This document shows positions 921 to 24,970 of a stretch of 64,000 nucleotides of DNA, one piece after another. Both the position numbers and the translations under genes were made by a program. Source of the stretch: Psammoneis japonica (taxonomy: Eukaryota); the NCBI GenBank assembly GCA_008632985.1, contig QPGO01000001.1, forward strand, positions 776,404-840,403, given 5' to 3'. The number at the start of each line of letters is the position of its first letter. Position 1 is the first letter of the stretch. Below the pieces are notes generated by a model. That model searched no databases. It was not told where the DNA came from and saw only the letters and a program-made list of their open reading frames with translations.

Positions 921-1049
921 TAAATTATCTAAACGAAAAAAAGAACAAGCCGTGACACAATGCACGCAACGCACGGTCTCAATGAAATGAAAATGAACTG
1001 CAAGAATGCAGTGTGATAGATGCAAAAGGATGAAATGAAAAATAAATTT

Positions 1050-3299: not shown

Positions 3300-3425
3300 T
3301 CATTTGCCCCAAGCATTCGCATTTTTTCACACTACCGGAGTACGATCGTTTGGCCGTCTGTCGTTCAAGTAGAATCTGCTACTGCTGCACATCCTCTGGT
3401 GTGTTTCTCATCGTGCATTGAGAAG

Positions 3426-3450
3426 GTGCTGACGCAGTTGACGTCAGCAC
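3426..3450. promoter_or_regulatory. Palindromic upstream element containing TGACGTCA (bZIP/CRE-type site)
   Basis: GTGCTGACG-cagttga-CGTCAGCAC inverted repeat about 130 nt upstream of the FG-GAP ORF. A recognisable copy lies upstream of the paralogous pseudogene (about 18010-18033). Confidence 0.4.
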
Positions 3451-3699
3451 TGAAGGACACGAGGGTTCGGATGCTCATGTCGCTCGACGGTAGACTATCG
3501 CAGCATCAGCGCTGATAGCAAGTCCATGCATTGCTCTGCCTCTTGGGGGTTGCGCTCCGTGAGGGTTGTTGTTGCAATACGAATACAGTCTCATCATGGT
3601 CGCATCATGCTGCTGTTGTCGCGCGGGCCACTTGCCGACGAACCCGCTGACGGACCGACCTTGGACCGAGCGCGCGCGCGCTCTCGCTACTGTACAGTG

Positions 3700-4013
3700 G
3701 TATGCTCAAATGCGTACTCTACTCTCTACTGTAGCTACTCTAACTGGTAGAGCTCTAGCTCTCTAGAGAGTAGAGTAGCTACTCTCTACTCTAGAGAGAG
3801 CTAGCTAGCTACTAGAGCTAGTAGAGCTAGAGTAGCTACTCTAGCTAGAGTAGAGAGTAGCGTGGAGAGAGACTCCTCTATCGGTAGGGCCTATGCGCTA
3901 CGGTCTCTGCTTCCAAAACTGATCTACTTTTTGGATGATTCGAACTCTATTTACTCTCTCTAGCTAGAGAGTAGTAGCTAGCTACTCTAGCTAGTAGAGA
4001 GGACCTACCGGTA
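3700..4013. repeat. CTAG/TAGAG/CTAC low-complexity palindromic array
   Basis: Perfect 17-bp inverted repeat 3778-3794/3845-3861 and a perfect 22-bp palindrome 3825-3846 (AGCTAGAGTAGCTACTCTAGCT). The array ends in TACCGGTA at 4006-4013. Confidence 0.85.
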
Positions 4014-4344
4014 AAACCTTACCGGCACTAATTACACAGCAGAGAAATTGAAAATGCCCACTCGCTAGACTAGTGAAGGACGTCAAGGTTCAAAGTTTTT
4101 TTATTGTGTCAGGTTATTTCATTTCAAAACTAAACCCATTTGTCTTTCAACCGCTGCTACTTCATGACGTTTACTATCCTGGAGATTCCGAAAGATGATG
4201 GTTACAATAGTTGAAAAACGATTCTAACAATTACGATCTCAAAACTAAACCGTTTCTCCTAAATATTTTGTTCTAAATGATTCTTATCCCTTCCAAGTTC
4301 CCTCGTGACTGCGGCTTAGCGAAGACAGTTCAACCAATTGCGCT

Positions 4345-5574
4345 TCAAGCGACGGCAATAAATGTATAGGCCACACAGCCCATAGCGATGCACATGATAA
4401 TGATCCACCACGGAAACGGATCCTCCGTGGTGGTATCAATGTTCATGTTCAAGTGAAAGAACCCGTCGCTACTGTTGATGGTTGCAGCCGACGAATGCCG
4501 CCACTGCCAATCATATTGGTACGGATCAAACGACGAGAGCCGCGTTCGTCGTTCATCTCCAAAATCGCAACGCCCTGAACGTCCAACCTGGCTGCGGCGT
4601 TGTAAAGGCTGTTTCCCAATCGAGTCAATACCAATCCACTCGGTAGGCCTCGAGTCATGGCGGTCACCGTGTTGGGTAGAGCGTTACGAATGGGTGAATA
4701 CGCAACCTTGTCATTCATGATAAAGTCCAAAGACTCGACGCCCGCAAACAGCACATTGGGGTAGTTGGATTCCATGCAAATGGCAATGTCCGTTACCATA
4801 TCGACAATGGTGTCATTGACACAAACACGCGTCTTGCGATCGCATTGACACGCCGTGACTCGTACGTTGCCAACATTCATCATCTCCATATTTCCGTCCA
4901 CAGTGGCTCGCAAGGAAACCTTGGTTTCACGGAAATTCACCGAAATGGCATCGATAAATTGACGGTAATGCAAGGAATCGTATACGCTTGGAAAGTTGCC
5001 TCGAACAAAGGCATCGACGAGAATGAGATCCAAGCGGACACAAAAATCGAGGTAACCAAGAGTCGGGGATTCTTCTTGCCAAATGCTAGAGTTCTTGTAT
5101 TGCTTTCCGATCTTCATTGCTACCTCGAGGTTGCCGTGGGTAGCATCTGTCGGTGATGGTGCAAAGTTCTTGCTGACCGAAACGAGATTGCGGGGAGTAA
5201 TGGGAGTCTTGCAATCGTATTCGTAGACCACAATGATCGACTCTCGACTCGAAATGTTGTAATTGATAAACACATTGACCGGAAGCGAGGGCGAGACCGT
5301 CACATTGAGCTTATAGATATCCCAATCGAACTTGGTCAACGTCGTATTGCCAGTGCCAGAGGTGGCGTTGGTGGCGTTGGTATGCTCGCCCATCTGATAG
5401 ACAGAACGAGAGAAACAGTGGTCGTGAGTCGCTTGACTTCTCGGATCAAATCGTTAATCATATAGACCTTTTGACACATACACAACATTAGAAAGTAACG
5501 CACCTTTGAAACACCAGCAACCACCACGGCAGGGCACAAGAAGGAAATCAGAAAAGGGAACGAGCGTTCATCAT
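4345..5574 (-). CDS. Two-exon secreted/type I membrane protein of unknown function (diatom-type family), with apparent 1-nt assembly indels
   Basis: Signal-peptide exon from ATG 5574 (MMNARSLF/LISFLCPAVVVAGVSK, one indel in a T run), GT-AG intron 5503-5394, then the 314-aa ORF 5393-4449. A shifted frame continues into a TM segment (DPFPWWIIIMCIAMGCVAYTFIAV). The true C-terminus is uncertain. Confidence 0.75.
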
Positions 5575-5779
5575 GGTGACTTGCGTTTTGTGGATTTTGT
5601 GTCGTAGTGAACTGAGCGTGGACTGCCTCGTCGGCTTGCGAGCGGTTACGTTTTGACGTTTGGCGATAAAAAATGTGGCGGGAAATTCCGATCCTTGGTA
5701 CTGTCCTCGTAGAAATGTACACGAGTCAAGCAGCAACGGCTGGAGATGAACCGACGCACGACCTACAGACCACCTTCAA

Positions 5780-8370
5780 AGATTGGAGCATTGCCATTGC
5801 AGCAGACTTTGAGTGCGACAAGAAGGAAACTTGTGCATCATTCAATGGAAGCAAACAAGCAAACATTCTCTTCTATCACTCTTTCACGCAAAGCAGCAAC
5901 TCATGCCATAAGATGAAACATTGTGCACCGAGAGTCCTTGCAAATTGATGGGTCGCCCGCCTGCTCTCTTTCTTCGTTCTCCTCGCCCTTCTTCAGCAAC
6001 GTGCCAGTCAAGTTGGTTTGGCCAAAGTCTCCCACAGATGATTTGTTGAAATGGCAACCATGTCAAATGCACAGCAACTCAATCTGTTGACTGGGACCAG
6101 GCAACCCACAGTCCAAAGCACTGCAAAAGTGCCTCTTCTGTCGGCGCTGGTGTGGCAAAGCCTCACATGCTTGTGTCACGCACAAGACATCTGTTGTCTC
6201 CAACAAACCAATTCAATTTTACCTGCAAATTCAAATTCCTTTGGTGTCTTGTCCTGGTGGATTTCATTTCCTTCATCAGAATCATTTCCTGTGTGCCACC
6301 TTTCTTTTTTGCATGGGTGTTTGCACGCATCATCTCCGTTCTGCCCCCATTGCTCAACTGGTGTCAATGACAATGTGTGTTTGATTGAAACAGGTCCCTT
6401 TGCATGCAACCGTGCCAGGATCTTTCTCCTGAGAATTGTGCTGGGCTGAGAGAGCAGTGGTTGTTTGATTCCAGGTCGTGCTTGACCAACCTGGCTGCAA
6501 GGCAGAAAACTGATGCTGCCTCAAAGATGCTCCGGGAAACATCTCGTGGAATTAGACAGTTGATGTGGTCAATGTTGCAATTGCTGGTTAAAAGCTCCAA
6601 GCCACACACATGGTTTGCACTGGCCCAGCTCCAAAGATTTTAATCATTTTTCTTTTTGAGGGGAAATCAAAATGAGCTGTGGCACTCACAACCCGATGCT
6701 GCATTGTTTTCGTGGAGCTGAGTTGCATGAGCAAAAGTTTCAAGCATTTTGAAAGGCAACTTTTAACAAATGCTGCAGAGCCACAGCTGTGGTCACACTT
6801 TGAGTGCACCACCTTGGATGAACAAAACTGATTTTGGGTTCAAATTTGGTCTTTTGAATCCACTTGCATGTTGTGAGCAGTTTGAGAAGCATGTGCCAAC
6901 ACTCTGCTCCAGCTCATAGAAGACAAAACATTGAAAACACCAAAGCATGCAATGGCCATCTAAAACCAGAGTGAGACTCACTGCAGTTGCTGGAGCATCA
7001 GTGGCTTCTTTCAGGGCTGGGCACTGGTGAACATGTGGGTGGGTTCTTGTTTCTTTGGGTGCAAAAGTTGTGCTGCTCGACAAAGCTGGCATCACAGGCA
7101 AACATTTCTGCTCACAGCCCAAAGCTGCACCAGCAGCATTGCCAATTGCCATTCCACTCATGAGCACTTTGACAAAGGAACCATTTTTGCTGCTGAGTCC
7201 ATTGCCAGCTTGTGTCTCATGTCAGTTGCTCAACAAAGCAGGAGCTCCATTGGCTTGTCTCACTGCCCTTTGCAACAAACTGGGTGAGCTTCTAAAGATG
7301 CAGCAAACTGTCCTGTCCAAAGCATGCCATTTGTGCAAGGGTGCTGCTGACAAAGAAGCACCAGCTGGCAATCATTTGTCTTCAACAGGCATGTTCTCAG
7401 GCAGAGCATGATGCCATTGCAGGGCTTGTCATGCATCATCCAGATCCAGAGCATGAGCTTTGTTGTGATGAGAACATGTGTGGAGAGCATTGCAAGTGTT
7501 GTCCAGTGTCATGCCTGAACAATCACTGTGGCAGGATGGTCACACCTCAGATTGTGGTTGTAAGATCATTTGATGCCCTGATGAGTGGGAGCTCAATGAA
7601 GTGCACACAAAGGTCTGAACAGTGGACAAGCCATTTTGTGCAAATTTTCAAACAATGCATGGGTCAGAGCTGCACCAGCACAGCTGAAAGGTGAGAAGAT
7701 TGGGAATGAGCTTGGCAGTGTGGTGGCCCTGTCATTTGATGGTTTGATCCTTGCAACAGGAAGTGAATGTCTTTTGGTTGGACAGTCAGTTGAGCTTGGT
7801 GATGACATTGTCAACAACAGCAACAACAACAGTTTTGGATTGGCCCTTGATTTGGTGTCAACGAGCAGCAATGAGCTCATCTTGGTTGTGGTGCAAAAGA
7901 CAGTGATTCCAATGGCAGTGCGAGTGGCCAAGTTGGAGCATTTGCTCACTCTTCCAGCCCCAACGCATGGATTCAAACAGGACAGCAGCTTGTGACAGCT
8001 TTGGCCATTCAGTGGCTTTGTCAGCCCAAGGGAGCATTTTGGCAGTTGGGGCTTCTTCTGGCATGGCAACCACACTGGCAATTTAACTGGCCAAGTCCAA
8101 GTGTTTCAAAGAGATGAAACAACAACAACCCAGATTCTGTTTAGAACAGGCTTCACACTGAGAGAACAGGAGATGTGTTTGGAACAGGTGTGTCCCTCAA
8201 CAACAAAGGGAACATTCTCACCATTGGTGCTCCAGAAAACAGGGAGGACAAGGGCTTCAATGGCAGTTGCCTGCATTTCCATTCATGCTGTGATTCTGCA
8301 GATGGGTGGGTTCAGATTGGAAATGATCTTGATGGCCATTCTGGAGGAGTGGGATTTGGCCAATCTTGCT
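5780..8370. other. TpA/CpG-depleted degenerate block
   Basis: TA and CG are very rare and TG/CA are in excess. It includes the decayed 5' part of an FG-GAP gene. Confidence 0.8.
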
Positions 8371-8579
8371 CTATTTCGGTTTATGGATTCATTGCAGTGG
8401 GAGGAGGTCCGGGTGCTGGATCGGGCTATGCTCGTGTTTTCGAGTTTGATAACGCAGCATGTCCCGACATTGAGTCCGCTCCCACAGAATCACCAAGTAG
8501 TCTAGCGACGCACTGCCGCCTGCAGGGCATATACATGATGTTGCCTTTGTTGATTGTTTTCGTGTGGACCAGCTTGTGA
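7600..8579 (+). pseudogene. FG-GAP beta-propeller gene remnant; 5' part hypermutated, last ~200 nt intact
   Basis: Fragments such as ELGSVVALSFDGLILATG, FGTGVSLNNKGNILTIGAP, DGWVQIGNDLDG and GYARVFEF, plus a C-terminal hydrophobic tail. Multiple frameshifts and stops. Confidence 0.8.
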
Positions 8580-8776
8580 AAGTACTGCAATTTCGCCACA
8601 AGTTGGGATTTAGGAAGTACGACAAGTGCCTTTCGTAAGAGGATGGAGTAAGGGCGCCGTCAGCAGTGTAGTTTTGTGTGGATACAAAATAGACCTTTGT
8701 TACTTCTACATGCAATATTCTGTGACGGTCCCGAGTGTCATTTCGCCAACCATTCAATCTGCATCGGGACATGTCG

Positions 8777-11490
8777 CTAACAAGGAGAGTAATGAATCTC
8801 TCCGTTGAAAACTCTTCCAGCTGTAGGGGTGGCAAACACTTGGTTGGTGCTCGTGCCACTGTAAATCTCAAGCGACGAGTCTGAAAATACGACCGAGTCA
8901 ACAACACTCGTCATATTCGAAGAGCTGCGAATCGCCATCTCTTGAGCTTGCGTCAGCCGAATTGCAACATAAAAAGCATGAGTCGAGCCCGACGTGACAT
9001 CTACAGTCTTGAACTCGTCGGCATTCAGCAACCGATTACCACCCCAAGCGAAACGAATCGTTTGGCTAAAGACCAAATTCCACGCGCTCATATCATCTTC
9101 GACACCTACGTGACTTCCCTCCTTCGTCCATACAGAAACAACGCCGCCGATCCTTGAGCTACCCCAGGTTGTAAAGGGAACCGTTAAAGTCGTGATTGAC
9201 AGGTCAGTTAGCGCTCTCACATTAAACATGATCCCGACTGAAGTCGTTCCACCATCGGTTGGACCGGCCAACGACATTGTGCTCGAAGAGCATTTGGCCG
9301 GGTAAGCAAGTGGAGGAGAACAGAGGCTATAGTGGACGTTTCCCGAGAATACGCTACCGTATTCGTTGGAGACTTGAGCAACAAACGCGGCACCAGTTCC
9401 AGTGCCACGGTGTAACTCCAGCGAACGGTCAAACGTAACAGGCGTACTCGAGATTGTCTGGTTGATGCTGTTAGAGAGTGTACGCAGCGTCGTGGCATCG
9501 TTTCCAGTCATGCGAACTAAAACGTAGAACGCTTGAATCGATCCGCTAGCAACATCGACATTTTTAAACTCATCAGCGTTCAGTTCACGGTTACCACCCC
9601 AAGAGAAACGGACCACTTGACTATACAGAAGTGACCATGCGTTAGCATCGTTTTCAAAGCCAACGTGACTTCCCTGCTTTGTCCATACAGTAACAACGCT
9701 GCTGAGTGTTGAGCTACCCCAAGAAGCAAAAGGGACTGTAAGCGTCATTACTGACAGGTCGCAGGGCTTTTACATCAAACATAATTCCGTTTGCAGTTGT
9801 TTGACCATCAAACGGACCCGCCAAGGAAGTTCCAAAGGATGAGCATTTTGCAGGGTACACGGGAGGAGGAGAGCAAAGACTGTAGTGCAAGTTACCCGAA
9901 AATGTGGATCCATGCTCGCTTGCCATAGACGGCACAAAGGCTGCCGTGGTAGCCGTCCCTTGCAGCAACTCCACCGAGCGATCGAACGTGACAGGTGTGC
10001 CGTCAGACCCCAACATGTCATCGGTTCGCATCCGCAGCGTCATAGCATCGTTTCCAGCCATGCGTACTAAAACGTAGAAAGCTTGAATCGATCCGCTAGC
10101 AACATCGACATTTATGAACTCATCTGAGTCCAGTTCACGGTCACCACCCCAGCGAAACGGACCACTTGACTATACAGAAGCGACCATGAGGTAGAATCGT
10201 TTTCAGAGCCAACGTGACTTCCTTGCTTTGTCCATACAGCAACAACGCTGCTGAGTTTTGAGCTACCCCAAGAAGCAAAAGGGATGGTTAACGTCGTTAC
10301 TGACAGGTCCGCAAGGGCTTTTACATCAAACATAATTCCGTTTGCAGTTGTTTGACCGTCAAACGGACCCGCCAAAGAAGTTCCAAAGGATGAGCATTTG
10401 CAGGGTACACGGGAGGAGGAGAGCAAAGACTGTAGTGCACGTTACCCGAAAATGTGGATCCATGCTCGCTTGCCATAGACGGCACAAAGGCTGCCGTGGT
10501 AGCTGTCCTTGCAGCAACTCTACCGAGCGATCAAACGTAACAGGTGTGCCGTCAGACCCCAACATGTCATCGGTTCGCATCCGCAGCGTCATGGCGTCGT
10601 TTCCAGCCATGCGTACTAAAACGTAGAAAGCTTGAATCGATCCGCTAGCAACATCGACATTTATGAACTCATCTGAGTCCAGTTCACGGTCACCACCCCA
10701 AGCGAAACGGACCACTTGACTATAAAGAAGCGACCATGAGGTAGAATCGTTTTCAGAGCCAACGTGACTTCCCTGCTTTGTCCACACTGTGACAACACTA
10801 CTGAGGATGAGCTACCCCAAGAAGCAAAAGGGACCGTTAGCGTTGTTACTGATAGGTCAGCCCGGGCTTGTACATCAAACATAACTCCGTTTGCAGTGGT
10901 TTGACCGTCAAACGGAGCGGCCAAGGAAGTCCCAAGGGAGAGCACTGGCAGGGTACGCAAGAGGAGGAGAACAAAGACTGTAGTGCAAGAGACCTGAAAA
11001 GGTAGCTCCATACTCGCTGGATTCCGAAGGCTCAAACAGGGTAGTGGTGCCAACGCCAGTGTACAACTGCAGGGAGCGATCAAACGTGATGGGCGTTAGC
11101 GTCGACCGCAGCACATCATCGTTGCGCATACGAAGTGGCATGGCGTTGTCAGCCTCGTAATCAACCCAAAGGTAGAAAGCTTGGGTTGCTGTTCTGGCAA
11201 TGTCGACATTTTCAAAGTCGCTCGCAACCAACTCCACGTTTCCACCTCCCGCCTTGGTTACATTTTGACGATAAACAAGAGACCACGCATTGCATCGCTA
11301 GCAAAATTTTCGTAGCAGCCACTTCTGGTCCAAATAGAAACCCTGCCAGTATTTCGTCTCGACGAACTCGAGGAAGAGAAAGGTACGGTCATCGAGTTGA
11401 CTGTCATGTTAGCGTCTACTTGTACATTGAACATAATTCCTTGTCCGCTGGATTGTCCGTCGATTGGACCACCAAGTGATTTGGCTTCAA
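8777..11490 (-). repeat. Five tandem coding repeats, period ~550 nt
   Basis: The G(I/V)MF(D/N)V motif recurs at about 11430, 10880, 10330, 9780 and 9225. Units around 9715-10255 and 10255-10800 are nearly identical at the nucleotide level. Confidence 0.9.
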
Positions 11491-13387
11491 CCTGACAGTT
11501 CGAAAAGCCAGGAAGGACCTGCTGCAGCTGGCAGTCCGGTCGTACAGGCCCTTCTTCTTCATTTGATGTTGGCTTTGGAGTTGGTTCTTGTGTTGCTTCT
11601 GTCGGAGTCGGTGTTTGTTCCTGCGTTGCCGTCCTGTTTCGGATCTCTTCCAGTAGCCCTTGTACCATGATTGCATTCTCGGCACCAGGATCGCCGCCAA
11701 TCAATCCTTCTGTCAAACACGCAGGATTGTCGCCGCATCGCGCATTCAACTCTTCGGAAGCCATTTCGGTCGTCACTGAGCCCGGGTACGCCAAGTCACA
11801 GTTGGCCGCGTAATCGTCAAATGTGACGCCATCGGTATAAGCAAAAAGAGATTCGGATGAATCTCGCAAACACCAATTGGTCGTACAGTACTCGTAGGCA
11901 TCCTCATACAAAAGTCCATCCTTGGACAATGGAACTTGTAGGCTGTTGCCGTCAGCGTCCATCCAATCGTCCATAATGTCCTTGTTGGGAGTTCCCAAAA
12001 GGCCAACGACGGTGGCGAAAGCCTCGTCCTCGGGTAGACAGACAAACGTATCCAAGAAGCAGCCAAGCGCTGAAGACGCCATGACCTTGGCCGTGACTGA
12101 TGTTCCCGACGACAAGTACAAGATATTGATCAAACTGTTACTCACCACGGTCACTTGTACGTTGTCATCTTGATATCCGTCCAAGACACTACGACGAGCG
12201 CCATCAACCCAGAAATCGACAAGGCACACGTCCACCTTTTCCGTTGTGTCAGTAGCCGAGGCTGGAAACTCGACTTGAATGGTTGGAGTTTGGGGGTTAG
12301 AAACGGCAATGGCAGTAATCTTACTGACCCGCTTGTCCCTTTCCAAAGCTTCAAATCGCGCCTGGACTTGGAGTGGAGAAGACCGCAAAAGGACAAATTC
12401 GCCAGCGGCTTGACAATCATACTCAAGATTATCAAACGTAGTCAAATGCGGCTCTCCCCACGCAAGAGCGACCGCTCCGACACATTGCGGAGTAATGTCT
12501 TGGGATGACACTGATGGTGGCGTGCTATCATTGGAGCTGCTTCCGCCAATGAGTGCTATTATGAGACCAACTAATCCGCCAATCACGGCGCAAATGCCGG
12601 CAACCAGAAGAAATCGATTGCGCGGTTTGGACCACCATTCTCTCATGCAACCATCCTTGGCGAGCTCGGCTGGATATGCCACTGGCAAATTCGTGGACGA
12701 AGCCAGAGGCATGTCGTTGTTGTCACTAGTTGTTGCAGCAGGACGAGTCGCACATTCCACATCGTAGTCACTTGCAGAGGCATCATCGTCGCCACCTTCA
12801 CGATATGCGCCAGGATACGACATGGCTGACTCTTCTTCGTGAGGTCGTGTAGGCGATGGAGCGGCCTCTTGATTATTCGTTCCAGAGCTGCGCGCAGTGT
12901 CTCGGGGAGTTTCTCCAGTTGTAGAGTCTCTAGTAGTAGTGACATGGGCCGTTTTCTTGGCTACGTCCGATTTTGCATTCTTCTTGGACACATTGCCAGC
13001 CTTCTCCGTTTGGCTACTACGACGCCTGGGCATCTTTGGACGAATCGAATCCACAGGGTCCTCGGCGTCGGGTCCATTGCGATGCTTGATGGGATGTTCA
13101 CGATTCTCCATTGTGTACTGCTCTGCCAAACTTGCGTTGCTCTTTCTATGCCACGTTGGAGGTTCTTGATGAGGCTGAACAGGCTCTTTGTCCCTGGAAT
13201 CATCATCTCTGCGAGCTTCTTCAGGATTTACTTTGGGCCCATTGTCTTCTTGGAGAACCGGTTTCTTGGTCTTACTGTGATGATGATGGTGTTTGCTTCC
13301 TTGGCGCTTGTGATTCTTCTTTTTACGATGGCCTTGCTTCTTCTTTTTTGATTCTGCTGCTTTTGGTTCTGTCGTTGATTCATCCAT
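8777..13387 (-). CDS. Large type II membrane protein with von Willebrand factor type D-like domain followed by five tandem ~184-aa domains; split by apparent assembly indels
   Basis: Likely start MDESTTEPK at 13387, YPGAY motif, TM helix (FLLVAGICAVIGGLVGLIIALI). VWD motifs WGEPHLTTFDNLEYDCQAAGEFVL and VVGLLG. ORF pieces 11258-13462, 10908-11237, 10661-11083, 10359-10787, 10112-10426, 9714-10061 and 8777-9748 tile one repeated protein. Confidence 0.85.
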
Positions 13388-14308
13388 CTTGTAACGTCGC
13401 TTAATTAGCAATTGGTTGGCACGTTTTCTTTCGCACTGATAGTCCGGTGTCTCTTGTTCCAATGAATGATTGTGAAAATTTGTGTCGACAATGGTAAAGC
13501 GGGAAATCTTTTTTTACGGCGATTGTGACACTTTGTGAGGGTTCGCAATCAAGTCCGCTGCCACGTACCCCGTTTCGGGTTCTCATTCATTCACGAGTCG
13601 TCTTCCCATAACTGCCCTGAAAATTGGCTGAAGCTCTCCATGTGGAGAAAGAAAGAGAATCAATCGCAAGAGAGACCCACTTTTCTTGCTCTTGCAACAA
13701 GATGGTATGGCGTCCATGATGGTATTGTGGCTTGTTTCCAAATAAACAAACGCCATGGAGAACAAGGCGTTCACAACCCGGACTGATCGATCGTGCGTTT
13801 CGTGCGGCAGCAAGCGTGACTGGAAACCCGCATTGAGCTTTACTTATGCCCTGCGTAAGCTGCTAGTGGAAGGATACAGTGCAAAGTACATTTTTGTCGT
13901 ACGAGCGTGTTCCTACAGTTATCATTCGTATGGTGGACACAAAAATGTCCACCAAATCGTCATTCGATGACCCGATGACCCGAGATCCAACTGCAACAAG
14001 AGAAGGTTGTTGACAAGCTCGTTGGTGGCACCCATGTCAAACAACTTGGAGAGTGAGATGGACTGCAACACCATGATGATGGGTGGTCGGTGGTGGCAAT
14101 GGACTTCTTCCCTGAGCAGATCCTCTTTTTGCTTTTTGCACTGCACTCTGTGGGGTTGTTGCTCAACAACAAGACAAAAACGTTGGAGCTTTTCACAGCC
14201 ACGCCAGCAGATTGGTTTGCAACTGAGTTGTGAGATGAGAGAACAGAGAGCAGGAGAGCTTTTTTAGCTGCACTCTCAAAGGTGCCTGCAGGAAATTGGT
14301 GCACAACT

Positions 14309-14631
14309 GGCCTGTTCCAGCTCCAGAGGTGATGTGCAGAGGCTGGATTCCATCACTGGCCATGCGTGAATTTGGCACAATGAACTCACTCCAGCTCCAG
14401 GTGATGCACAGAGGTTGAATTCCCATCACTGACCATGTGTGCATCTGGCACAATGAACTTGCTCCAAATTGATTTTCCCAAATTGAAGGGCAAGTGGTGC
14501 ACAAAATTTGTGTGTTTTTGTGTGCACTCCCCTTCTGATTTTCAAAAAAAACAAATTTGAAGGAGTTCAATGTGCCAACCTGCACCCTTTTTGCATGATG
14601 GATTGTGCATCACCTGGAGCTGGAACAAGCC
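14309..14631. mobile_element. MITE (copy 1) with GGCCTGTTCCAGCTCCAG terminal inverted repeats and a ~74-nt internal duplication of the left end
   Basis: TIRs 14309-14326 and 14614-14631 match at 17/18. The interior is homologous to the copy at 38664-38922. Confidence 0.8.
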
Positions 14632-15699
14632 AGGCAGCACAGCTCTGAGATGAGTTGGCTTGTTGCCAGAGTTGCAGGACGGAAGCACAGCAGCACCCCA
14701 AAAACAGATTTTGGGTTTTGTTTTGAGAGACATCTCAGAGTGACTTGCAGGCACCATTTTCTCAGTGGACTGTTGCAGCAGAGCATGCAAAAAGTTATTT
14801 GCAGATGCCAGAACCCTCAATTCACAGCAGAGTTGTTCTCCTTTTGCCAATGTTGCGCCGGCATGACACACAGATTTTTGTTTTGACGGAGTTGTTCTGC
14901 ACACTTTGATGTGGGGCAACAATGTGACAGCAGCCAACATTGCAGAATTTTTGTGGTTGGCAACAAATTGACTGTCAAAGCTCAACTCTTGCACATTCAT
15001 TGCAATCTCACCCAAGCTCCCTCTCCCCCACTTTGCATCTGGCAGAGCTCCTGCCAAAGGAGGAGCGCCAGCTGAGTTTTTTGTTTTGGCACCATGCAAC
15101 ATCAACTTCATCTTGTGTGCCAGGAAGAGCTTGGCCACAACAAAGGGTGCAAGTGACCAAACCACCAGCTCTAAATTTCAAAAGCACTGTCACTCCATTG
15201 CCAGCTGTGTGCCATTTTGCAAGGGTTGGCCAAGGGCAGTGCTGCATTGCAGTGATGCCTGTCTGAGGCAACTGGAAACAATGAGATGACACATCACAGG
15301 GTTCACAGCTTTCTGTCTTGTTGGAGCTGCAGCTGTCACAGCTGCCTCACCACGACAACAAAGGATGGTGGTCACACTCAGAACTTGGTTCAAGAGCCGC
15401 ACAAAAAGTGAGGCAGGAGCATGGCTTCTAAAAACCACAAACTTGTGCTCATCAAAAAGAGACCCAACTTCACACCTTGAAGCACTGCAACGACAGCTGC
15501 CTGGGGGGGAGGGCATGAGAAACAGGAGCACTTGATGTTGTGAAGAGTCAGGGGTCATCAGAGGAAACATTCATCTCATGCAGAAACGACACCAGAGAGA
15601 GCTCTTGCAGAAATGTTGATGCATCCAACAAATGGGTGCCTGTCAAATTGATGATGTTGAATGACAGTGTTCTGAGTTGGCAAGAGTCACTCATTGTGG

Positions 15700-17790
15700 C
15701 ACCCGAATCACTCCATTGTGCTCCAACACCAACGATGGTTCCCAGGGCATTCAAGGAAACAGAAAAACCAAAAGAATCATCAGGAGCTTGGCCAATGAGT
15801 GTTTGACCGAGTTGGCTCCATGACAATTTGTCACGGTTGCATTGGAACAATCGAACTGATCCCGAATTCTTGGCGTTTTCCGTGTCATCTCAATGCGCTC
15901 CAACAGCAAGAATGTCACCCGCATCCGAGAGCAAAACAGAAATGCCAAATTGATCATTGGCATCTTTTCCAAGAATGTTGCCACCGAGTTGGACCCAACG
16001 ATGCATTGCCGAGTCACACTCAAATGCTCAAACATGACGGCGCAATGTTTGCCATTGTTGTTGTCATCAGCTCCAATTGCAAGAATTGCGCCGATGCCAT
16101 TGAGCAAAACAGAGTTGCCAAATCTGTCACCGCCAGTTTGTCCAATCAGTTCTTGGCCAATTTGCACCCATTGCTGGGTGCTGGAATTGCATCGCTGCAC
16201 AACAACATGGCCGGCATTGGAAGAACAATGACCTTGACTTGCTCCAATGGCTGCGACACTGCCATCACTGGACAAGGAGACCGAATCGCCAAAACAACAA
16301 TGATCAGCTTTGCCATGCAAGACTTGTCCAATGGGATTCCATGGACCGTTTGGCAGCAAACCAGGGCCAGCAGGATTGGGCCTGGGGCATGTGGTTGGAC
16401 TGAGAGTTGGACCCGGAGCAGGGTTCCTTGATGGCAGTGCCATTGGATTGCCGGTCGTTGGGCCGGAGTCCACGGTGGCAACGCGGGATCTTGTGTTGGT
16501 TGTTCTGCAACTGGAACACTGTTGGCAGGCAACGGTGTTGGAAGAGCAGCACTGGTTGAGACTTTACCAGTGACAATCAAACTGTCAAAAGTGTCACTTC
16601 CGGCATTGGCACCCGCCACCTGGAGGTCTTTTTTGCAGGCCAATCTGCTGGCAGACGTCTTGAATGGTTCAGTCGCCATGACACCCATGGAAATGTTGTC
16701 ATTGATGCTGCCGTGAAAAGCATGTGACAGCTTGATTGCACCTGACTTGCAGGGATGATTCTCCATCTGCATTCTCTTGAACCACAACAGTGTTGGCAAC
16801 CTCCAGAGATGTCTCAACATTTTGTGTGTTTGACACTTGCAAGTTTCAAGTCCGGAGATGCGAAAGCAGGCCGAGACAACAACAACGAGCACTGCAATGA
16901 TCCTCACAAACGCTTTGGTTGCAGTGGCCCACAACTCAGAATCATTTTCGTCAAACTTGGTTCCAAACCAACTAAATCCATTGCCAATCCAGAAGCTTCT
17001 TTTGTGGATATGCTGGCACCTGACTCCCACTGCTGTCTCCGCGGCTGCCACCACCGGAAGGTGCGCCAACAGCAATCCCAACAATTGCTGCAATGGCCAA
17101 AACTGCAACGCCCAGAACAATGAATTGTTTGCGAAGGCACTTGTGACCAAGCTCCTCTTCAGTGTTCTCTTCATCTTCTTCAAGTGGTGCTTGTGCTTTG
17201 CTTGCTTGTTGTTCTGTCTTACATCAGTGTCAGCAGCAGGAACCCCATCAACAACTTCTGCCTGGTGAGTTCCTGCTTCAAGATGAGCAACTCATTCCCA
17301 AAGAGCTACAAAATCCTCCCTTTCTTCTGCCAATTCAGCCATGACAAGTGGAGCATCATCATTGCATGTACGAGTGGAGTCCTCTGGAGGAGGAGGACAC
17401 ATCGTTCGATTCCGGACAAGAGCAAAACATTGTCACACCTCAGTTCCTTCCTCTTTGCACCTCTTGTCCTCCTTGATGGACAGCAAAGGCTCCAGCAGCA
17501 ACTGCACCTGCATTGTTGGAACCACAACATCTTCTTCTTCTTGACTCTGCTCTTGACGGAGGCAATGGGCAGCTTGTTGCTTTTTTCTGTGAGAAGAAGC
17601 GGCGAATTCTCCCATGGGAATTGCGTTGTCAAATTCTCCAGTGGCTTTTCATCATCCTTCTTCAAGTCAAAGGCACTGCTGCGAACACCATGCCTGTCGC
17701 CCATGTCGTCATTGTTGCACTTCAAGGGAATCTTCTTTTTGTTGTTGGAACGGTTCACAATGTCGTGATGAATGTTGTTTTGCAAAATGC
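15700..17790 (-). pseudogene. Hypermutated paralog of the FG-GAP gene at 1050-3299
   Basis: Colinear similarity (NNIHHDIVNRSNNKK, LPNGPWNPIGQVLHGKA, SQLGQTLIGQA, ALGTIVGVGAQW). Tyr is replaced by Cys (QRYN->QRCN, FQYDR->FQCNR, KYSD->KCNN). Stops and frameshifts are present. Confidence 0.92.
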
Positions 17791-20700
17791 GGAAAAAATT
17801 GCAAGAACTTGTTTCTCCCATTTGGCCATTGACAGCTGCAGGGGGTTCTCATCCATTGCCCTCATTGCTCTTTCTACAGTGTTCTGAGCAGAGAGAGAGC
17901 AGATGGAGCAGCAGAAAATTTGCGGAGAAAAATGGCAGGAAGTGGGGTTCTCATTGGACGTTGCGTTTTCTTTTTTTCCGTGTGTTCTTTGCGCTGTTGC
18001 ACGAGAAAGGCGCTGACACAGTGGACGTCAGCACTGACACAAGGATTTGCTTCCAACAGCCTCATTCGACAAAAGGCATGACCGCATGGCAGCAATGAAA
18101 TGAGTCCATTGCATTGCCTCATGGAGGTTGCTTTTTGCTGTGGCATGAGACCATGGCCTGTGGTGATGCGCAGAGTTGTTTGTTGGGATTTTTGAAATTT
18201 TCGTTGTCATTGACTTTCCTCTGTCCATCAAATTTATCATGCAGGGGTTTGTTCCTTGCAAATGGCTGTCAAAATGCAGCCAAAGTTAGGGCCTGCAGAC
18301 AGACAGCACAAGAAGGCTCAAGCAAATCAAAAAGAGAGCAGAACAAAGCTTGCGCGGTGGAGGGGCAGAGCAAGCCCCCCACAACTTGTGCCCCAGGGTG
18401 TGTTGTGCCAGCCACCACAAATTGCAGCCAAGTGCATGAATGGCTTGTGTCTGTCAAAGGCACAAAAGCACAAATCAATTTCACACACCAAAGACAGCTG
18501 TCATTCTCTCAACAATGTTGAATGCTGTTGACGACTCTGCGACAATCTGCTTCAGGTGTCACAGCTTTTGTCGCATTGCACTGGTCATTTAAATTTCCCA
18601 AACCCATCCTGCATCAACTGTGGTGCTGTCGGGTCACTGTGGAGTGCTCATTCACACTGACTGATCATGCTGCAACAAGGTTGCACCATTTTGGCGGAGG
18701 CAGCCAAAATGGGTTTTTGAGACCCAGCAAATCACCACCATGTGAGAAAAGCATTGTCAGTGGGAGAAAGTGTGCAAAAACAGACACAGAGGCTGAGGGT
18801 GAGCAGCTGATGGGGGGGGGGCAAACTTGGGAAAAGCTTCAAGAGGGAATGGCACAGCTCCAGCCAGATTGCCATCTTGTCAAAAATGTGGCATTTGAGC
18901 AAGAAGGTGTCAGCTCAGTCATCCTGGAAGACAAACACAAAACTCCTGAGCAGCAAGAGAGCACTGGATGCTGCTTCCAAATCTTCAACCCCAAGAGAAG
19001 TGGGGAGCTCCCATGACAACATCAGCAACAGTGGGGCATCACCATGCTCTTCTTGGATCTCTTTTGAAAATTTTTGCACCAGCAAATTTCAAAAAGAAAT
19101 CACCTGGGGGCAGCAAGCACACATGGTTCTTTCATCTGCCCCAGCTGCAGTGGCAGGCAAGCTTGAAACCTTGTTTTTATGAGCATCCAATTGGGGGCAA
19201 TGATGACTGTGTCATGTCACAACATGCACCCACCATGACTGGTGCTTGAAGCCATCATGAGATGTCAAAGTGCTGTTGCTCCTGCAGGGGCACAGACATT
19301 GCAAATGATGACATGCTGAATGGGGAGCATGATGCACAGCTGAAAGAGGTGAGTGGTGGAGATGACAATGAGAGTGGGGCAGCTGCATTTCCAATGATGG
19401 GCTCAATGAGCCTGAGAATGAAAAGGGGGAATGGCAGATGCACCAAGTGGCATGTTTGTGGCATGTGTGTGTGTGCTTTTTTACGCCTTGTTGAGAGCTG
19501 CTGGGAAGAGTGAAGAGTGTGCACCCTGCCCCCCACCCACCCAACCCACCCCCCACAGCAGCAAGTGTCATGAGCATGTTTTTATAAATTTGTTTGTTTG
19601 CTTGCTTTTTGTGTTCTTTGTTCAAGATGCACTTCATGCGTGAGCCGTCCAATGGCTCCTCTCAGCCATGATTGTGTGCAAAAACAAGGAAGAATTTGAA
19701 AAACTTTGCGACAATCTGTGGCTGCATTTGCAGTGTTCAGGCAAGTCCTGTGGAAGTCTGAACATTTGCTTTTCTTCTGGTGATTTCAGAAACAAAATTG
19801 GAGCCAGCAGGAAAAGGAGTGCACCCACTTTGAGAAACATGTGCAAGTTGTTCTCTGGAAGAACTGCAGAGAAAATGATGCAGATTCAAGAGAAGGCACA
19901 GTGGACCACCCCCTGTGTTGCATGCATTTTTGTGAAAGAGATGACTGGCACAGAAGAAGACTTGCAGTCTGTGCTTGTCTGAAACCAGCTCCAAACACAA
20001 ATCTCACCAACAAAGAAGAAGTTTCCCATGGGCGTCTGATGCACGGATGGCCCTCAAGCAAGCCACAAGAAATGCCTGCACTGGCAGCATGCAGAAAACT
20101 CATTGCTCCAAATGCACCAAGCTTGGAAGACGTGGCAGCATTGTTTGCTGCATTTCATGAAAGCTGGCCGTTGGATCAGAAACGACTCTCCACAATGACA
20201 AATGTGGTGCTTCAGCATGCAAAAGGATCGTCACAGGCAAGGCATTGGACAGACTGCATGCAAGGCAGCATTGAGAATGCTTGTCTCTGTCAAGGTTTTT
20301 GAAATGTTGGGCTCAGATCCATGACAGATGCCAGCAGGACTTTGATGTTCCGGTTTCAAATCAAAGTCGAGCAAGAAGCCGCCTTTTGCAAAGGTGTTGT
20401 AGGAGTTTGGCTCACCGAGATAGAAGAAATCAAATCTGTGGAAGCATTCAAGGCTCTTGTTGGTGCGGAGGTTGACAAAGAGGAAACTGTGAACGAGTCC
20501 ACTTCGAAATGATGAAGAGGATTGCTTTTTGCCACCATGGGAAGCAAGCTTCTGGAATCATTTTGAGTCAGCAAGAGGCAATCAAGGCAGCCGCTGCTTG
20601 CCAGATTCTCATCTCGAACAAGCAATTGACAACACAGTGCCGCAAATTAAAGAATGTTCACTGATGATGTTTGTCGTTGACAAATGCATGTTCGATTTGC

Positions 20701-20849
20701 AGTCTGCTCGAAACGAGCTGCAGTCAGTTGCAAACGAGCAATGCGGATCAATCGCCTGGTTTGCGGGACCCATGCAAACAAAGTTGTTAAAGGACAAAAG
20801 ACACAAGAGAAACAAGACAAAACCAGCCGGCAGGAGCCAGCATGTTGCC

Positions 20850-21450
20850 CAAAGCAGCAGACGCAGCAGGTGATGGCGCAGGATTTTGTGACATTGCCGA
20901 TGGTGTCACGGAAGGCAAGGCATTGAGCACTGGCATGCTCGACGGCATAGATGCAGGCAAGGTCGATGGCTTTGTTGACGGCATTGTGGACGGCATCGAC
21001 GTCAGCTTTGTGCTGTTTCCAACAAGCTGATGGGACAGAATCCTGAGGTTGCCGCACATGCGTTCATCATGATGGCAAACAACAGGATGGCCATTGTCAT
21101 CCACAGCCACAGCCACATGTGTGCCAACAACAAAAGCTCACTTGCGTCAACAGTTGCATCTGTTTTTTCACCTTGGCAGTTGCCATCCCTGCAGAGCAAA
21201 AGCTTGAGAATGCCGCCAGGAAATGACTGGCAGCAGCTCACGACAGGATTGCCATTGGCAGTCAGTGCAAGAGACTGGTGCCGTGTGCGAATGCTTGTCC
21301 CATTGCCTGCCACAGCTAAAATGGCATTCCCACTCTGGAAGTTGGCGTCACAGCAATGCAGCACCTTGACAGCAAACACGTCAATGCAACTCAAAACAGG
21401 ACAGCCGCTGGCGTCCAAGGCCATCGAATGTGCAAAACTTGTTCGCCATT
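20850..21450 (-). pseudogene. Remnant of a beta-propeller repeat protein (S.ALD..G.PV.SYYD-type repeats) with PS-rich tail
   Basis: Three repeats: SMALDASGCPVLSCID..KVLHCCDANF, SLALTANGNPVVSCCQ..LKLLLCRDGNC and AVAVDDNGHPVVCHHD. They are followed by an MPSTMPSTKPSTLP stalk. Confidence 0.65.
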
Positions 21451-22699
21451 GTCGTTTGTTCCAGGTGTCGGTGAGGTGTGGTGATGTGATTGTGATCGAG
21501 TGGCTCTGCAACAAATTCAATCCTGTCTTCCTTGCGGTGAGCAAGACGCACCATTTTAACATTGGAGTCAAAACCATCGAACAGTTGCATGGCAAGCCAC
21601 CTTTCGAAGTGCTGCAGATGATGCGAGCAAACCGCACCCACCCTCCACACGAGGGTGCCGACCGGTCCGGCAACCCCATGGCATGCTGGGCCCTTGATGG
21701 ATTGATGGAGTTGATGCAACGACATTGTCACAAGATGAATTTCCAGAACACCATCAAAGTTGGAAGGCGCACTCTGGTGACGTGGCCCTCATTGCCAAGT
21801 GCACTCAGTTCTCGTCCAAGGGCTGGCTGACAGCGAGACGTTTGAGTGCAAATGCGTGGACCTGCAGGACAACGACCCCAAGCGTGACAGTGACAACCGC
21901 AAAAAAGCTGCATCAGTCCCCAGCCGAGTGCTGAGAAGCAGTTGGCAGCCGAGTTGCTCCATTTGACTCAAGCCACAGCAGAAATCCCAGGACGCAAGCC
22001 AGCCATGATTTATTTTGGAATGAATTGCCAAATGTCACTGCCAAATTGAGCTTGGAGAGCGAAGATGAAAGGATGGCACGTTGGCCAGAAGACTGTCGAA
22101 CGGAGGAAGAGATGTTGCTGTCATCGGTGGTGGATGCGACACACGACAATGACACGAACGATGGCGAGACCCATGTGGAAGCAGCTGCGGTTACAATGGC
22201 AGAAGAGCTGGAGGGGACGGTTGATGGCAACGAGGCATCGGACGATGCAATGGATGAGCCAGAGGCATTGGTGACAATGGATCCTGTGTTGATTGGCGCG
22301 CCACATGATGATGAGGCGGATGAAATGGAGGAAGCAACGGACGACGAGGTTGAAGAAGGTGCAGCTGCGTTGCGTCGGAAACCATCGATGTGAAAGTGGG
22401 AAAGCGCAGCGTTGGCAAAATGGCGCAGGCCGCGACAAACGTCCTGGGGTTCAAGGACGTGTTCAAGGTGGGAAAAGAGAAAATGAAAAAGAAAAATTTA
22501 CAACAGACACAATGTCAGGCGAAAGCACGTGAGACACGACTTTGGGAATCATTGAAAGAACCGTTGTTTCGAGAAAACACCGGTGAGGAGGCTGATGAAA
22601 TGCTGCAAGAAGCATTTGACCGGCTGCGATCGCCAGTGTGACAATGCATGTTAATCTGATGTGCAAGCAGCACACATCAACAACAAATGTTTTATTTGG

Positions 22700-24630
22700 T
22701 GCATGTGTTTTCCCAAAACGAATCATGATGCATGGCCAAATCCATTGTGCCGGGTGCACTCAATGCAAGGGCTAACGTGATGCAATGCTTGTCAGATTCA
22801 TCCTCAGCTGGCTCGCAAACGAGAATGCCAGCCGCAATGAGGACCAAAGGGGTTTGCTTGACAGCCTTTGGCTCAACCTTTGCTGCAGAGCTTTGGAACA
22901 ACAAAGATGGCATGCTTGGGAACCGAGCGAATGGCATCGACAACCAAATCTGCCAGGCGCAGCTTCTGGATTGCATGCTCGCCATGCACAAACACTTTAA
23001 AAAGCATGGATGCAACGCCAGATCGATTCAAAGTTGGACAAAGATCCACGTGTTTTCCGTGACAACAGGTGCAGGCGCCGCAAGGATTCAAAAAACGGGG
23101 GTCGACCGTGCTTGCATGCGTTGGATGAGAAAGCAGCACCTCCCAGGACGCTTGATGGCAACAAACGGGCAACAGAAGCAGACGGAGAACCTGCATCAAG
23201 TCAAGAAGCTGTGCCGCCTTGCGTCGCGCGAAACCTTCCGTTCCGCCGGGTCTGTGATTCAATGGAACAAATGAACAAAAGTTTCAAGAGAGATGAAAGC
23301 ACGGCAAAAGCAACCCTGCAAAGCACTGCTGCATCCAGCACGGCCTTTCTCCTGATTCATGTTGACAACGGAGGGAGGGAAATCGATTCTGAAAACACGG
23401 CAATGTGTTGAGAGTCAATGCCGGCATTGGAAGCCCTGCTGGCAGCACAAAGAAACCGCGGTCTCTGCGGAGCGTCCTGTGCTGACAAATCCGTCCCAAT
23501 GAAAGTCGAAATGTGGTGAGCCTTTTGTTCCTTGGTGAGGGCACCAACAAGTGGAATGACGTCCAACAAATGACAGGCGTCCTGCGATCCAGCCACAACT
23601 CGAGATCATTGTGGAAGGATTCAATTTTCGTGCGGCGGTTGGAGTGCACAATGCATTTGGTGTCATTGGTTGCAGCAGCCAGCAACGGCGCCAGCAGATT
23701 TGACATCACCGTGAATGGGCGGTCACTGCAGGACACAAGAAACGAAACATTCCGGTGCATCATGTCCCAGGGAGGTGGCCAACAGTGGTCTTGAATTTTG
23801 AATCCAATCAAACCCTCCATGGAAGAGAGAATGCACGCAGTGCAGGTTGCCGTCCATGGGAGGAACGGAGTGGAACATTGCGCAACATGACAGAAAAAAA
23901 CATTGCGCAGCTGTTGAAATGCTTCCCGATAAGAAAGCCCGAAACTCACAAAGAGATGGATTTCATCCAATGCCAGGAGCCAAAGCAATCCGTTTGATGC
24001 AAATGTCAGAATGAGCTGAACAAGCCACTCATCAGACACAAGCAACTGAGGTGAAGAAAAAAGAAATGTTGTCCCGTGAACCGCCATCGGCAGATGCTGC
24101 ATCAAAGAACAAAACTCCTGCAGGAGTGATGGATGTTGGAAAACTTCATCCAAATGGAAGGAAGTTGCAGGACCGTGTGATGGATGTTGCATTGCACGGT
24201 TCATGATTTTACGGCATTGATCCGAACCCAATGACAACAAGGGAACAATCGCAAGGACGACACCCTTGAGGCAAACACCAACAATGTCTCGCACAAGGGA
24301 CTTTCCACCCCCAGTGGGGCGGACAAGCAACAAAGGTTTCGCAGGCTGATTCGGAGTGGTTTGAAGCACACGGCATGACACATCGCTCTGCCAAGCATGC
24401 GGATCCTTTTGGAAGACATCAAGAGAGACCCACAAGATGGAAGCGGCGGCAGCGTCATCGGAAAAGGTGCCATCATTTTGGCTGGAAGCGGCAACACCCG
24501 CAGAAACATCATGTGCAACAGCAGCATGTTGGTCACTCAAAATTAGAGGCATGCCGCTAGAAGGAAGCATGCCACGCACAACAGTGGAAACTGGAGAGGA
24601 AGGCAGTTCGGGGAGTGTGTGGCCAGCCAA
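22700..24630 (-). pseudogene. RecQ-like SF2 helicase pseudogene
   Basis: Motif I PTGGGKS, Ia VPLLSLGSDQ, SPQLL, motif II DEIH, motif III TAT and NAGID. A downstream Cys cluster (CGACTCC) resembles the RecQ Zn site. Frameshifted and Tyr-poor. Confidence 0.85.
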
Positions 24631-24970
24631 GTCGCAAGGTGCAGGGACGGAGAACGGGAGGTCGTCATGGTCAAGTCATCAAAACGTGTGTTTTTGTGCG
24701 AAGAAAAGAGCTGCCAAAAGTGCGTTTCCGCACCCTCGGAGTTTGGAGGTCAGAGTTTTAGGGGAGCTGTGGAATGAGGATTTTCACTTGTGGACACACA
24801 CATCCATGTGTGTGTTGACATTGAAACTCAACGGACGGCAAAGCCGTGCACGCGCAACCACGAACACACGCACAGCTCCCCTGCCACAGGGGTGCATTTG
24901 TTCGTTCTTCGAGCACAGTGCAGCCCAGCGCCGGCCACCCTTGCAGCATCTCCAGTGGGAGCACTGTCTG

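What the first reader, a model, noticed from the sequence alone, without database searches (positions are those of the whole stretch)
5780..19620. Sequence-context rule: surviving TpA sites are mostly YTAR, implying a TAY (possibly WAY) target
Seen by eye, not exhaustively counted: residual TAs in the mutated blocks (5780-8370 and about 14000-19620) are largely TTAA, CTAA or TTAG (e.g. near 6552, 6589, 6640, 6764, 6961, 7293, 8084, 14264, 15172, 15428, 18287, 18590). RTAY is nearly absent (one GTAC at about 17369). YTAR presents TAR on both strands, while RTAY presents TAY on both. The COX16 copy also shows AAC->AGC changes (CAAAC->CAAGC, AACGG->AGCGG, CAACTG->CAGCTG). Inference: the mutated A prefers a 5' T (then A) and a 3' pyrimidine. 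This resembles the TAC preference of TadA-type deaminases and the WA preference of Pol eta, and could distinguish between mechanisms.
Basis: partly seen in the sequence, partly recalled or inferred. Interest (0 to 1): 0.75.

Follow-up and report, generated by a model that had tools for sequence, protein, structure and literature searches.

The report
Context rule of diatom TpA hypermutation
In this diatom's silent DNA almost every TA step has been rewritten to TG or CA, about three times faster when a C or T follows the A and slowest inside runs such as TTTAAA, which gives a fingerprint for finding the still unknown enzyme.

Summary
The bias is real but overstated at these coordinates. The two blocks keep 31 TAs: 14 YTAR, 15 mixed, 2 RTAY (genic DNA 15/57/28%; p=2e-5). 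Over 264 kb, survival falls from 0.60 (TTAA) to 0.004 (ATAT).

Copy alignments in three repeat sets resolve the rule. Relative rate at +1 is T≈C (3–4) > G (1.3) > A (1); A at +2 and T at −2/−3 protect. The model predicts survivors out of sample.

TAY is supported. TAC is not specially favoured over TAT. WAY is not supported: AAY mutates about 65-fold slower than TA and no faster than CAY. In a LINE family, 2919 of 2933 changed TAs became TG/CA, independently per copy, on both strands, without strand-coordinated runs. This argues against Pol eta patch synthesis and processive ssDNA deamination.

Best guess (0.45): a distributive adenine deaminase acting in silent chromatin; no enzyme is identified. 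TpA hypermutation is already reported in Bigelowiella natans (2026 preprint), whose main text gives no flanking context and no diatoms. This scan noted the same feature repeatedly elsewhere in this genome.

The parts
5765..8371 (.). TpA-erased block 1 (13 TA, 5.0/kb; CpG 8.8/kb); its right end holds a dead FG-GAP-repeat gene fragment
   Evidence: HMM segmentation; tblastx; Illumina contig
13930..27287 (.). TpA-erased block 2 (56 TA, 4.2/kb); the finding covers only 14000-19620 of it
14307..14633 (.). Short element with 20-21-nt terminal inverted repeats, converted; dozens of 68-87% identical matches in the genome
15700..17780 (-). Converted, dead paralogue of the FG-GAP-repeat gene family (intact copy at 1050-3299); TAC->TGC 14 of 25, TAA 2 of 10 against TA-richer paralogues
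17009..17370 (.). The only two RTAY survivors in the finding's blocks (ATAT 17009, GTAC 17369)
921..5764 (.). Unconverted genic control block (TA 39.6/kb)
8372..13929 (.). Unconverted genic block (TA 35.6/kb); it contains 74-80% identical intragenic tandem repeats (8952-11211) that were not converted
25053..25424 (+). Converted copy of a ~500-bp repeat; of 14 copies aligned, 11 are nearly intact and 3 heavily converted
29363..29690 (-). COX16-like gene (weak Pfam hit, E=0.013, below cut-off), source of the copy at 44322-44674
44322..44674 (-). Converted COX16-like copy with three AAC->AGC changes
29700..35900 (-). Young non-LTR retrotransposon (RVT_1); 63% of its ancestral TAs are converted; main data set for the context model

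Best explanation
The surviving TAs are the slow tail of a TpA-specific A:T->G:C mutator that works on silent DNA after elements insert.

SHOWN: Each TA is hit once, on either strand, independently in each copy. Relative rates around the mutated A are +1 T≈C > G > A (about 3.6:3.1:1.3:1), +2 C/T > G > A, and -2 and -3 A > C,G > T. The best target is about 5'-AAT[A]YY and the worst is TTT[A]AA. YTAR survives because both of its adenines lack a 3' pyrimidine. Exposure varies over a few hundred bases, and element ends are partly spared.

INFERRED: A distributive adenine deaminase (A->hypoxanthine, read as G at replication) with a near-obligate 5' T is recruited to silenced chromatin and acts on duplex or only briefly opened DNA over many cell generations. 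The flank effects would reflect ease of base flipping (weak 3' stacking helps, rigid A-tracts hinder). Candidates in the genome are ADAT2 and a diatom-wide ADAR-like domain without dsRBD; neither is linked by any result.
For: Purity: 2919 TG/CA against 14 other outcomes in 27 LINE copies; 1926 A->G against 8 A->C/T at TA in 61 copies of a second family. Specificity: about 100-fold over non-TA A->G and about 19-fold over CpG decay. The same context was fitted in separate sets. It predicts held-out site survival (rho -0.70) and direction (rho 0.69), LINE site conversion (rho 0.52), tetramer survival (rho -0.99) and a 100-fold survival gradient over 885 genomic survivors. Copies are independent (pairwise z -0.09±1.04; -0.37±1.20). 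A weak leak at non-TA adenines has the same 3'-pyrimidine bias (OR 2.5 and 1.8). TadA-derived editors give A->G at TA with a TAC preference (PMC8065034, PMC13225742 passages), and B. natans shows TpA-only hypermutation with ADAT2 proposed.
Against: No enzyme is identified. The PF00383/PF14437 searches found only ordinary members. There is no strand coordination at 3 bases or more, which a processive ssDNA deaminase would leave; an earlier pooled test hinted at 0.55 versus 0.50 within 30 bases but did not survive within-site permutation. There is no preference for predicted unpaired sites (41 sites), unlike BjADAT2, whose hotspots are TCG/GAA and hairpin loops (PMC10354150 passages). 5'-T strictness is far above ABE7.10 (about 4-fold). 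Sequence alone cannot tell whether the A in TAY or the paired T in RTA is the base altered. The ADAR-like gene is widespread, yet 42 metagenome loci around it (455 kb) show no TA-erased block. Some sites resist for unexplained reasons (one TTAA kept in 57 of 57 copies).
Confidence: 0.45

Rival explanations
1. A base-modification mark is written at TpA in silent duplex DNA and later miscodes: an oxidised thymine (5hmU/5fU) in 5'-R[T]A giving T->C, or a methylated adenine that is then deaminated, by analogy with 5mC decay and RIP.
For: It fits strict dinucleotide specificity, strand-independent hits and domain-scale exposure. Dinoflagellate 5hmU marks repeats and replaces T preferentially in TA and TC (PMC11572971 passages). 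TA conversion and CpG loss co-vary across 70 copies (rho 0.54).
Against: No Tet_JBP match in the genome, but the control genomes gave none either, so this is weak. TC steps are not hit (GA->GG 0.0035-0.006). 5hmU pairs with A and is weakly mutagenic (recalled). Methyltransferases were not searched.
Confidence: 0.25
2. A glycosylase or nickase opens TpA sites in silent chromatin and Pol iota (or eta) fills a one-base gap, putting G opposite T; the context comes from the excising enzyme.
For: Pol iota-like, Pol eta and a second eta-like gene are present. One-base patches would give pure A->G without strand runs. Pol eta misinserts G opposite T and works in late-replicating heterochromatin (PMC13716900 passages). 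The strong T:dGTP error of Pol iota is recalled.
Against: No initiating enzyme is known or was found. The near absence of transversions (12 of 2933 changed TAs) demands an extremely one-sided error.
Confidence: 0.15
3. Pol eta long-patch error-prone synthesis (WA->WG, as in somatic hypermutation).
For: The gene is present; AAY is 1.5-fold above GAY pooled (p=0.006, strata partly overlapping); TA is a WA site (PMC2213188 passages).
Against: AA is not a target (AA versus GA OR 1.06; about 65-fold below TA). There are no strand-coordinated tracts. Sites near many CpGs convert more slowly, not faster (rho -0.42, 41 sites).
Confidence: 0.04
4. The YTAR excess is a by-product of block composition, selection, reverse-transcriptase or ADAR hyperediting during transposition, or assembly error.
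For: In the finding's 31 sites alone the skew does not beat a Markov null of the blocks (p=0.14).
Against: The skew is highly significant at 885 sites. Direction of change follows context. Both strands are hit with no transcription-strand bias (TG share 0.398 versus 0.409 expected). Gene duplicates and inverted-repeat elements are converted too. An independent Illumina contig agrees.
Confidence: 0.01

Closest known systems
TpA hypermutation of integrated NCLDV and virophage DNA in Bigelowiella natans (Mettrop et al., bioRxiv 10.64898/2026.01.13.699255)
   Same: A->G/T->C only at TpA, both strands, confined to foreign or silent regions, leaving TpA-depleted, CpA/TpG-rich clusters; deaminase proposed.
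   Different: Other lineage (diatom). Near-saturating and covering 77% of 264 kb sampled here. Targets are transposons and dead gene copies. Flanking-base rule, lack of strand coordination and spared element ends are not in the preprint's main text ('context' 0 hits, 'diatom' 0 hits; supplements not visible). De novo rate measured there, not here.
Repeat-induced point mutation (RIP) of ascomycetes
   Same: Dinucleotide-specific hypermutation of repeats on both strands with sharp block edges.
   Different: Opposite chemistry: it destroys TpA rather than making it, and cannot create in-frame stops. Sequence identity alone does not trigger it: 97-99% identical short copies and intragenic tandem repeats stay intact.
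TadA/ADAT2-3 adenosine deaminases and TadA-derived base editors (ABE7.10, ABE8e); amphioxus BjADAT2
   Same: Pure A->G, 5' T favoured, TAC a good site.
   Different: TA:non-TA is about 100 here against about 4; TAT is as good as TAC; no loop preference or strand runs; BjADAT2 hotspots are TCG/GAA.
Pol eta WA->WG mutagenesis of somatic hypermutation
   Same: A->G at TA.
   Different: AA is not targeted, transversions are nearly absent, no strand-coordinated tracts.

Membership tests
B. natans-type TpA hypermutation | A:T->G:C changes almost only at TpA, both strands | tested here: met
   2919 of 2933 changed TAs are TG/CA; about 100-fold over non-TA
B. natans-type TpA hypermutation | Confined to foreign or silent regions, forming TpA-depleted clusters | tested here: met
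   Blocks at 1-8 TA/kb versus 29-88 in normal blocks; contents are transposons and dead gene copies; silence itself not measured
B. natans-type TpA hypermutation | About 1000-fold raised de novo rate, active in a subset of lines | not testable with these tools
   Needs mutation-accumulation lines; LINE copies with 49-84% of TAs converted but few transversions imply a fast, recent process
B. natans-type TpA hypermutation | Same flanking context, hence same enzyme | not testable with these tools
   The mutation table is in the preprint's supplements, which I could not see
Fungal RIP | C->T at CpA (or another CpN), creating TpA | tested here: not met
   CpA C->T 0.0004-0.002 in LINE copies; TpA is destroyed
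Fungal RIP | Triggered by sequence identity between copies | tested here: inconclusive
   11 near-identical 500-bp copies and intragenic tandem repeats are unconverted, while 6-kb LINE copies are converted even amid TA-normal flanks
TadA/ADAT2-type DNA adenine deamination | A->G with 5' T | tested here: met
TadA/ADAT2-type DNA adenine deamination | TAC as the preferred trinucleotide | tested here: inconclusive
   TAY favoured, but T 3.6 [2.5-5.3] versus C 3.1 [2.3-4.4]
TadA/ADAT2-type DNA adenine deamination | Single-stranded or hairpin-loop substrate (strand runs, loop bias) | tested here: not met
   No same-strand excess at 3-1500 bases; residual rate versus unpaired probability not significant
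TadA/ADAT2-type DNA adenine deamination | Enzyme with DNA activity; inosine in DNA | not testable with these tools
   ADAT2, a TadA-like and an ADAR-like gene exist; activity unknown
Pol eta WA mutagenesis | Both TA and AA are hotspots | tested here: not met
   AA versus GA OR 1.06, p=0.74
Pol eta WA mutagenesis | Errors clustered on one strand in resynthesis patches | tested here: not met
Pol eta WA mutagenesis | Pol eta gene present | tested here: met

The most novel reading that the evidence does not exclude
This diatom has a natural adenine editor for double-stranded chromosomal DNA: a deaminase (possibly the diatom-wide ADAR-like domain that lacks RNA-binding domains) recruited to silenced chromatin, which flips and deaminates A in 5'-AAT[A]YY with about 100-fold TpA specificity as an anti-transposon defence shared with a distant chlorarachniophyte.
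Probability: 0.2. Interest if true: 0.9.

Novelty: new variant of a known kind. Interest (0 to 1): 0.62.

Why it matters
TpA hypermutation has one direct report (B. natans preprint) and no enzyme. A quantitative flanking signature, replicated in separate repeat families, makes the enzyme question testable. It gives best and worst substrates for assays, predicts the context of the 231 B. natans mutations if the enzyme is shared, and removes Pol eta patch synthesis and processive ssDNA editing as likely causes. If the cause is an adenine deaminase for duplex DNA, it would be an unusual genome defence and a lead for base-editing tools. In practice, it also corrupts consensus building, dating and ORF-based activity calls for repeats in this genome.

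Tried and rejected
1. Majority-rule polarisation of the LINE family was misleading, because the majority allele at a TA site is often already converted. It suggested no +1 rule and a strand bias. It was redone on ancestral TA sites. The excess of rare TG events (p about 0.001-0.003) comes from conditioning on rarity; the overall TG share matches expectation.
2. Short-range strand coordination in pooled pairs (z about 2) vanished under within-site permutation. Only TATA pairs remain coordinated, which a context shift after the first hit can explain.
3. Hairpin-loop targeting: no support. CpG-triggered repair: CpG-dense neighbourhoods convert more slowly (one family, 41 sites).
4. WAY: rejected as a target class.
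5. Direction test inside the finding's own block is underpowered (8 versus 4, p=0.39).
6. Search for an unusual deaminase: 9 PF00383 and 6 PF14437 matches, all ordinary or a converted pseudogene. ADAT3 was not recovered, so sensitivity is limited.
7. The Tet_JBP search was empty with empty controls: uninformative.
8. Metagenome flanks of the ADAR-like gene: 42 of 58 loci were at least 3 kb; one window fell below rho 0.15, without CA/TG gain. These are gene-dense contigs, so this is not evidence of absence.
9. Flank TA density did not predict conversion of LINE ends (rho -0.12 and -0.25, not significant).
10. Run X2 leaves parts of the blocks uncovered; not interpreted.
Only 264 kb of one contig was available for survivor counts.
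Full report
SETTING. The window lies on contig C2 of a 91-Mb eukaryotic assembly. Named homologues of one of its genes are all diatoms, so I call it a diatom. A two-state HMM splits the window into TA-poor blocks (1-8 TA/kb, CpG also reduced) and normal blocks (36-43 TA/kb). In 264 kb of the contig, 202,700 bases (77%) are TA-poor. The finding's blocks are 5765-8371 and 13930-27287. They hold an inverted-repeat element, dead FG-GAP-repeat gene copies and other repeats. An Illumina contig spans the first block with 10 other letters in 2,832 bases.

OBSERVATION. All 13 quoted sites check out. The skew is significant against genic DNA (p=1.8e-5) but not against the blocks' own Markov composition (p=0.14). 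At 885 survivors it is clear: YTAR 48% against 30% expected, RTAY 4% against 20.5%. Survival relative to genic DNA is TTAA 0.60, TTAG 0.33, CTAG 0.20, TTAC 0.16, CTAC 0.13, TTAT 0.08, GTAC 0.045, CTAT 0.037, GTAT 0.006, ATAT 0.004.

DIRECTION OF CHANGE. Survivors alone cannot separate a 3'-pyrimidine rule from a -2 purine rule, so I used copy alignments. (i) TA-rich versus TA-poor pairs, 8,478 sites at transversions of 4% or less: A->G per A is TAC 0.62, TAT 0.50, TAG 0.32, TAA 0.30 (saturating), other contexts 0.015-0.13. (ii) 89 copies of one repeat family: 11 mostly intact and 75 converted; 61 converted copies with low transversion rates were analysed. Fifty-five copies were chosen as converted at one site, which biases that site only. 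(iii) 27 of 30 LINE copies (two tandem near-duplicates and one divergent copy dropped), 233 ancestral TA sites, 4,496 fates: 1,577 kept, 1,132 TG, 1,787 CA, plus 14 other outcomes. At sites where only one strand offers TAY, that A is hit in 276 of 399 and 660 of 1,058 events.

CONTEXT MODEL. A competing-risk fit on 891 fates from other families gives +1 T 1, C 0.85, G 0.37, A 0.25; +2 T 1, C 0.81, G 0.61, A 0.41; -2 A 1, C 0.66, G 0.54, T 0.50; -3 A 1, C 0.63, G 0.60, T 0.37; +3 and +4 not significant. The LINE gives, independently and relative to A: +1 C 3.1 [2.3-4.4], G 1.3, T 3.6 [2.5-5.3]; +2 C 2.3, T 1.8; -2 T 0.48; -3 T 0.37. It also predicts genomic survival, which falls from 0.54 in the slowest decile to 0.005 in the fastest; 29 of the finding's 31 survivors lie below the 40th percentile of predicted rate. 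So TAY is right, TAC is not special, and the fuller motif runs from about AAT[A]YY (fast) to TTT[A]AA (slow).

WAY. Non-TA A->G is 0.0046 in the LINE and 0.0079 in the second family, about 100-fold below the TA hazard; AAY is about 65-fold below. AA versus GA gives OR 1.06 (p=0.74). AAY versus GAY gives OR 1.6 (p=0.06) and 1.3 (p=0.34), pooled 1.54 (p=0.006, strata partly overlapping). AAY versus CAY gives 0.78. There is a weak leak at any VAY over VAR (OR 1.8-2.5), not a WA target. The three AAC->AGC changes in the COX16-like copy are real but anecdotal.

HOW IT ACTS. Copies were converted independently after insertion (pairwise concordance z -0.09±1.04 and -0.37±1.20). Each LINE copy has lost 49-84% of its TAs with few transversions. 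There is no transcription-strand bias (TG share 0.398 versus 0.409 expected). There is no same-strand excess between TAs 3-1,500 bases apart; only TATA pairs are coordinated. Conversion status does cluster, with residual autocorrelation 0.06-0.09 up to 250 bases, 0.03 at 251-600 and none beyond. Full-length LINEs are 62-88% converted inside but 21% in the 3' 500 bases and 30-45% at the 5' end, and many sit in TA-normal flanks. Short 500-bp repeats are often intact, and intragenic tandem repeats at 8952-11211 are untouched. I infer a domain of silent chromatin nucleated by the element, with spared edges, rather than pure homology sensing. CpG loss co-varies with TA conversion across copies (rho 0.54) but is about 19-fold slower.

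MECHANISM. Pure transitions, near-obligate 5' T and 3'-pyrimidine preference resemble adenosine deaminases. ABE7.10 ranks TA>CA>AA>GA (24.5 versus 6.3%) and favours TAC (PMC8065034: passages and section 8), and ABE8e off-targets fall at TA (PMC13225742: passages). But the strictness here is far greater, there are no strand runs and no loop bias, and BjADAT2 prefers TCG/GAA and hairpins (PMC10354150: passages). Pol eta targets WA (PMC2213188, PMC13716900: passages), which is not seen. A modified-T model remains open: dinoflagellate 5hmU marks repeats and favours TA/TC (PMC11572971: passages), though TC is not hit here. The genome encodes ADAT2 (with the N equivalent to TadA D108N, which PMC10354150 reports as common and not sufficient), a TadA-like protein, Tad1, a second ADAR-like catalytic domain conserved across diatoms, and REV1, Pol kappa, iota, eta and an eta-like gene. 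None is linked to the process, and 42 metagenome loci around the ADAR-like gene show no TA-erased block. My odds: deaminase 0.45, modified base 0.25, excision plus one-base fill-in 0.15, Pol eta patches 0.04, artefact 0.01, other 0.10.

KNOWN WORK. Mettrop et al. (bioRxiv 10.64898/2026.01.13.699255; I read the abstract, Results, Discussion and term passages, not the supplements) measured TpA-only A->G/T->C hypermutation in integrated viral DNA of B. natans and proposed ADAT2. The main text has no flanking-context analysis and no diatoms; the supplements list the mutations and may bear on context. Five paper searches found no report of the process in diatoms or of its context; the library lacks most subscription papers. 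PMC10661471 was seen as passages only and not relied on. This scan's notes record the same TpA erasure and the YTAR/TAY idea many times elsewhere in this genome; they led me to the preprint and are not counted as support.

VERDICT. A real, replicated context rule of a recently described kind of hypermutation, in a new lineage and at much greater extent. New variant of a known kind; interest 0.62.

Noticed in passing
G000 C79:344558-345390 (L258/L259): A second PF02137 gene besides Tad1: an ADAR-like catalytic domain with intact zinc ligands and no dsRBD hit among 120 listed homologues, conserved across diatoms (named hits include Skeletonema, Thalassiosira, Seminavis, Fistulifera, Pseudo-nitzschia). 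Function unknown.
   Followed up: partly
window 29700-35900: The LINE keeps long open frames (1253 and 829 aa) although 63% of its ancestral TAs are converted; TA->TG/CA cannot create in-frame stops, so dead elements look intact and majority consensus is misleading.
   Followed up: yes
window 8372-8580: The 3' end of the dead FG-GAP-like gene appears to continue past the block edge unconverted, next to the 3' end of the convergent gene; this suggests protection by the neighbour's transcription or chromatin.
   Followed up: no
L004 family, alignment sites 380, 384 and 432: A few TA sites resist conversion far beyond the sequence model (one TTAA kept in 57 of 57 converted copies); possibly a protein footprint.
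   Followed up: partly
L243, L240, L251, L252: Partly converted copies carry one ~100-bp converted patch, shared between pairs of copies, with the rest mostly intact; inheritance or ectopic gene conversion.
   Followed up: partly
window 3690-4010: TA-rich low-complexity CTAG/TAG repeat between two genes, unconverted; excluded from controls.
   Followed up: no
G000 C19:616608-617336 (L174) and C22:252628-253293 (L171): A second Pol eta-like gene and a Pol iota-like gene are present alongside eta, kappa and REV1.
   Followed up: partly
window 8777-13513: Gene with a VWD domain and ~550-bp tandem repeats, broken into several frames in this assembly; indels against Illumina contigs suggest assembly errors.
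   Followed up: no
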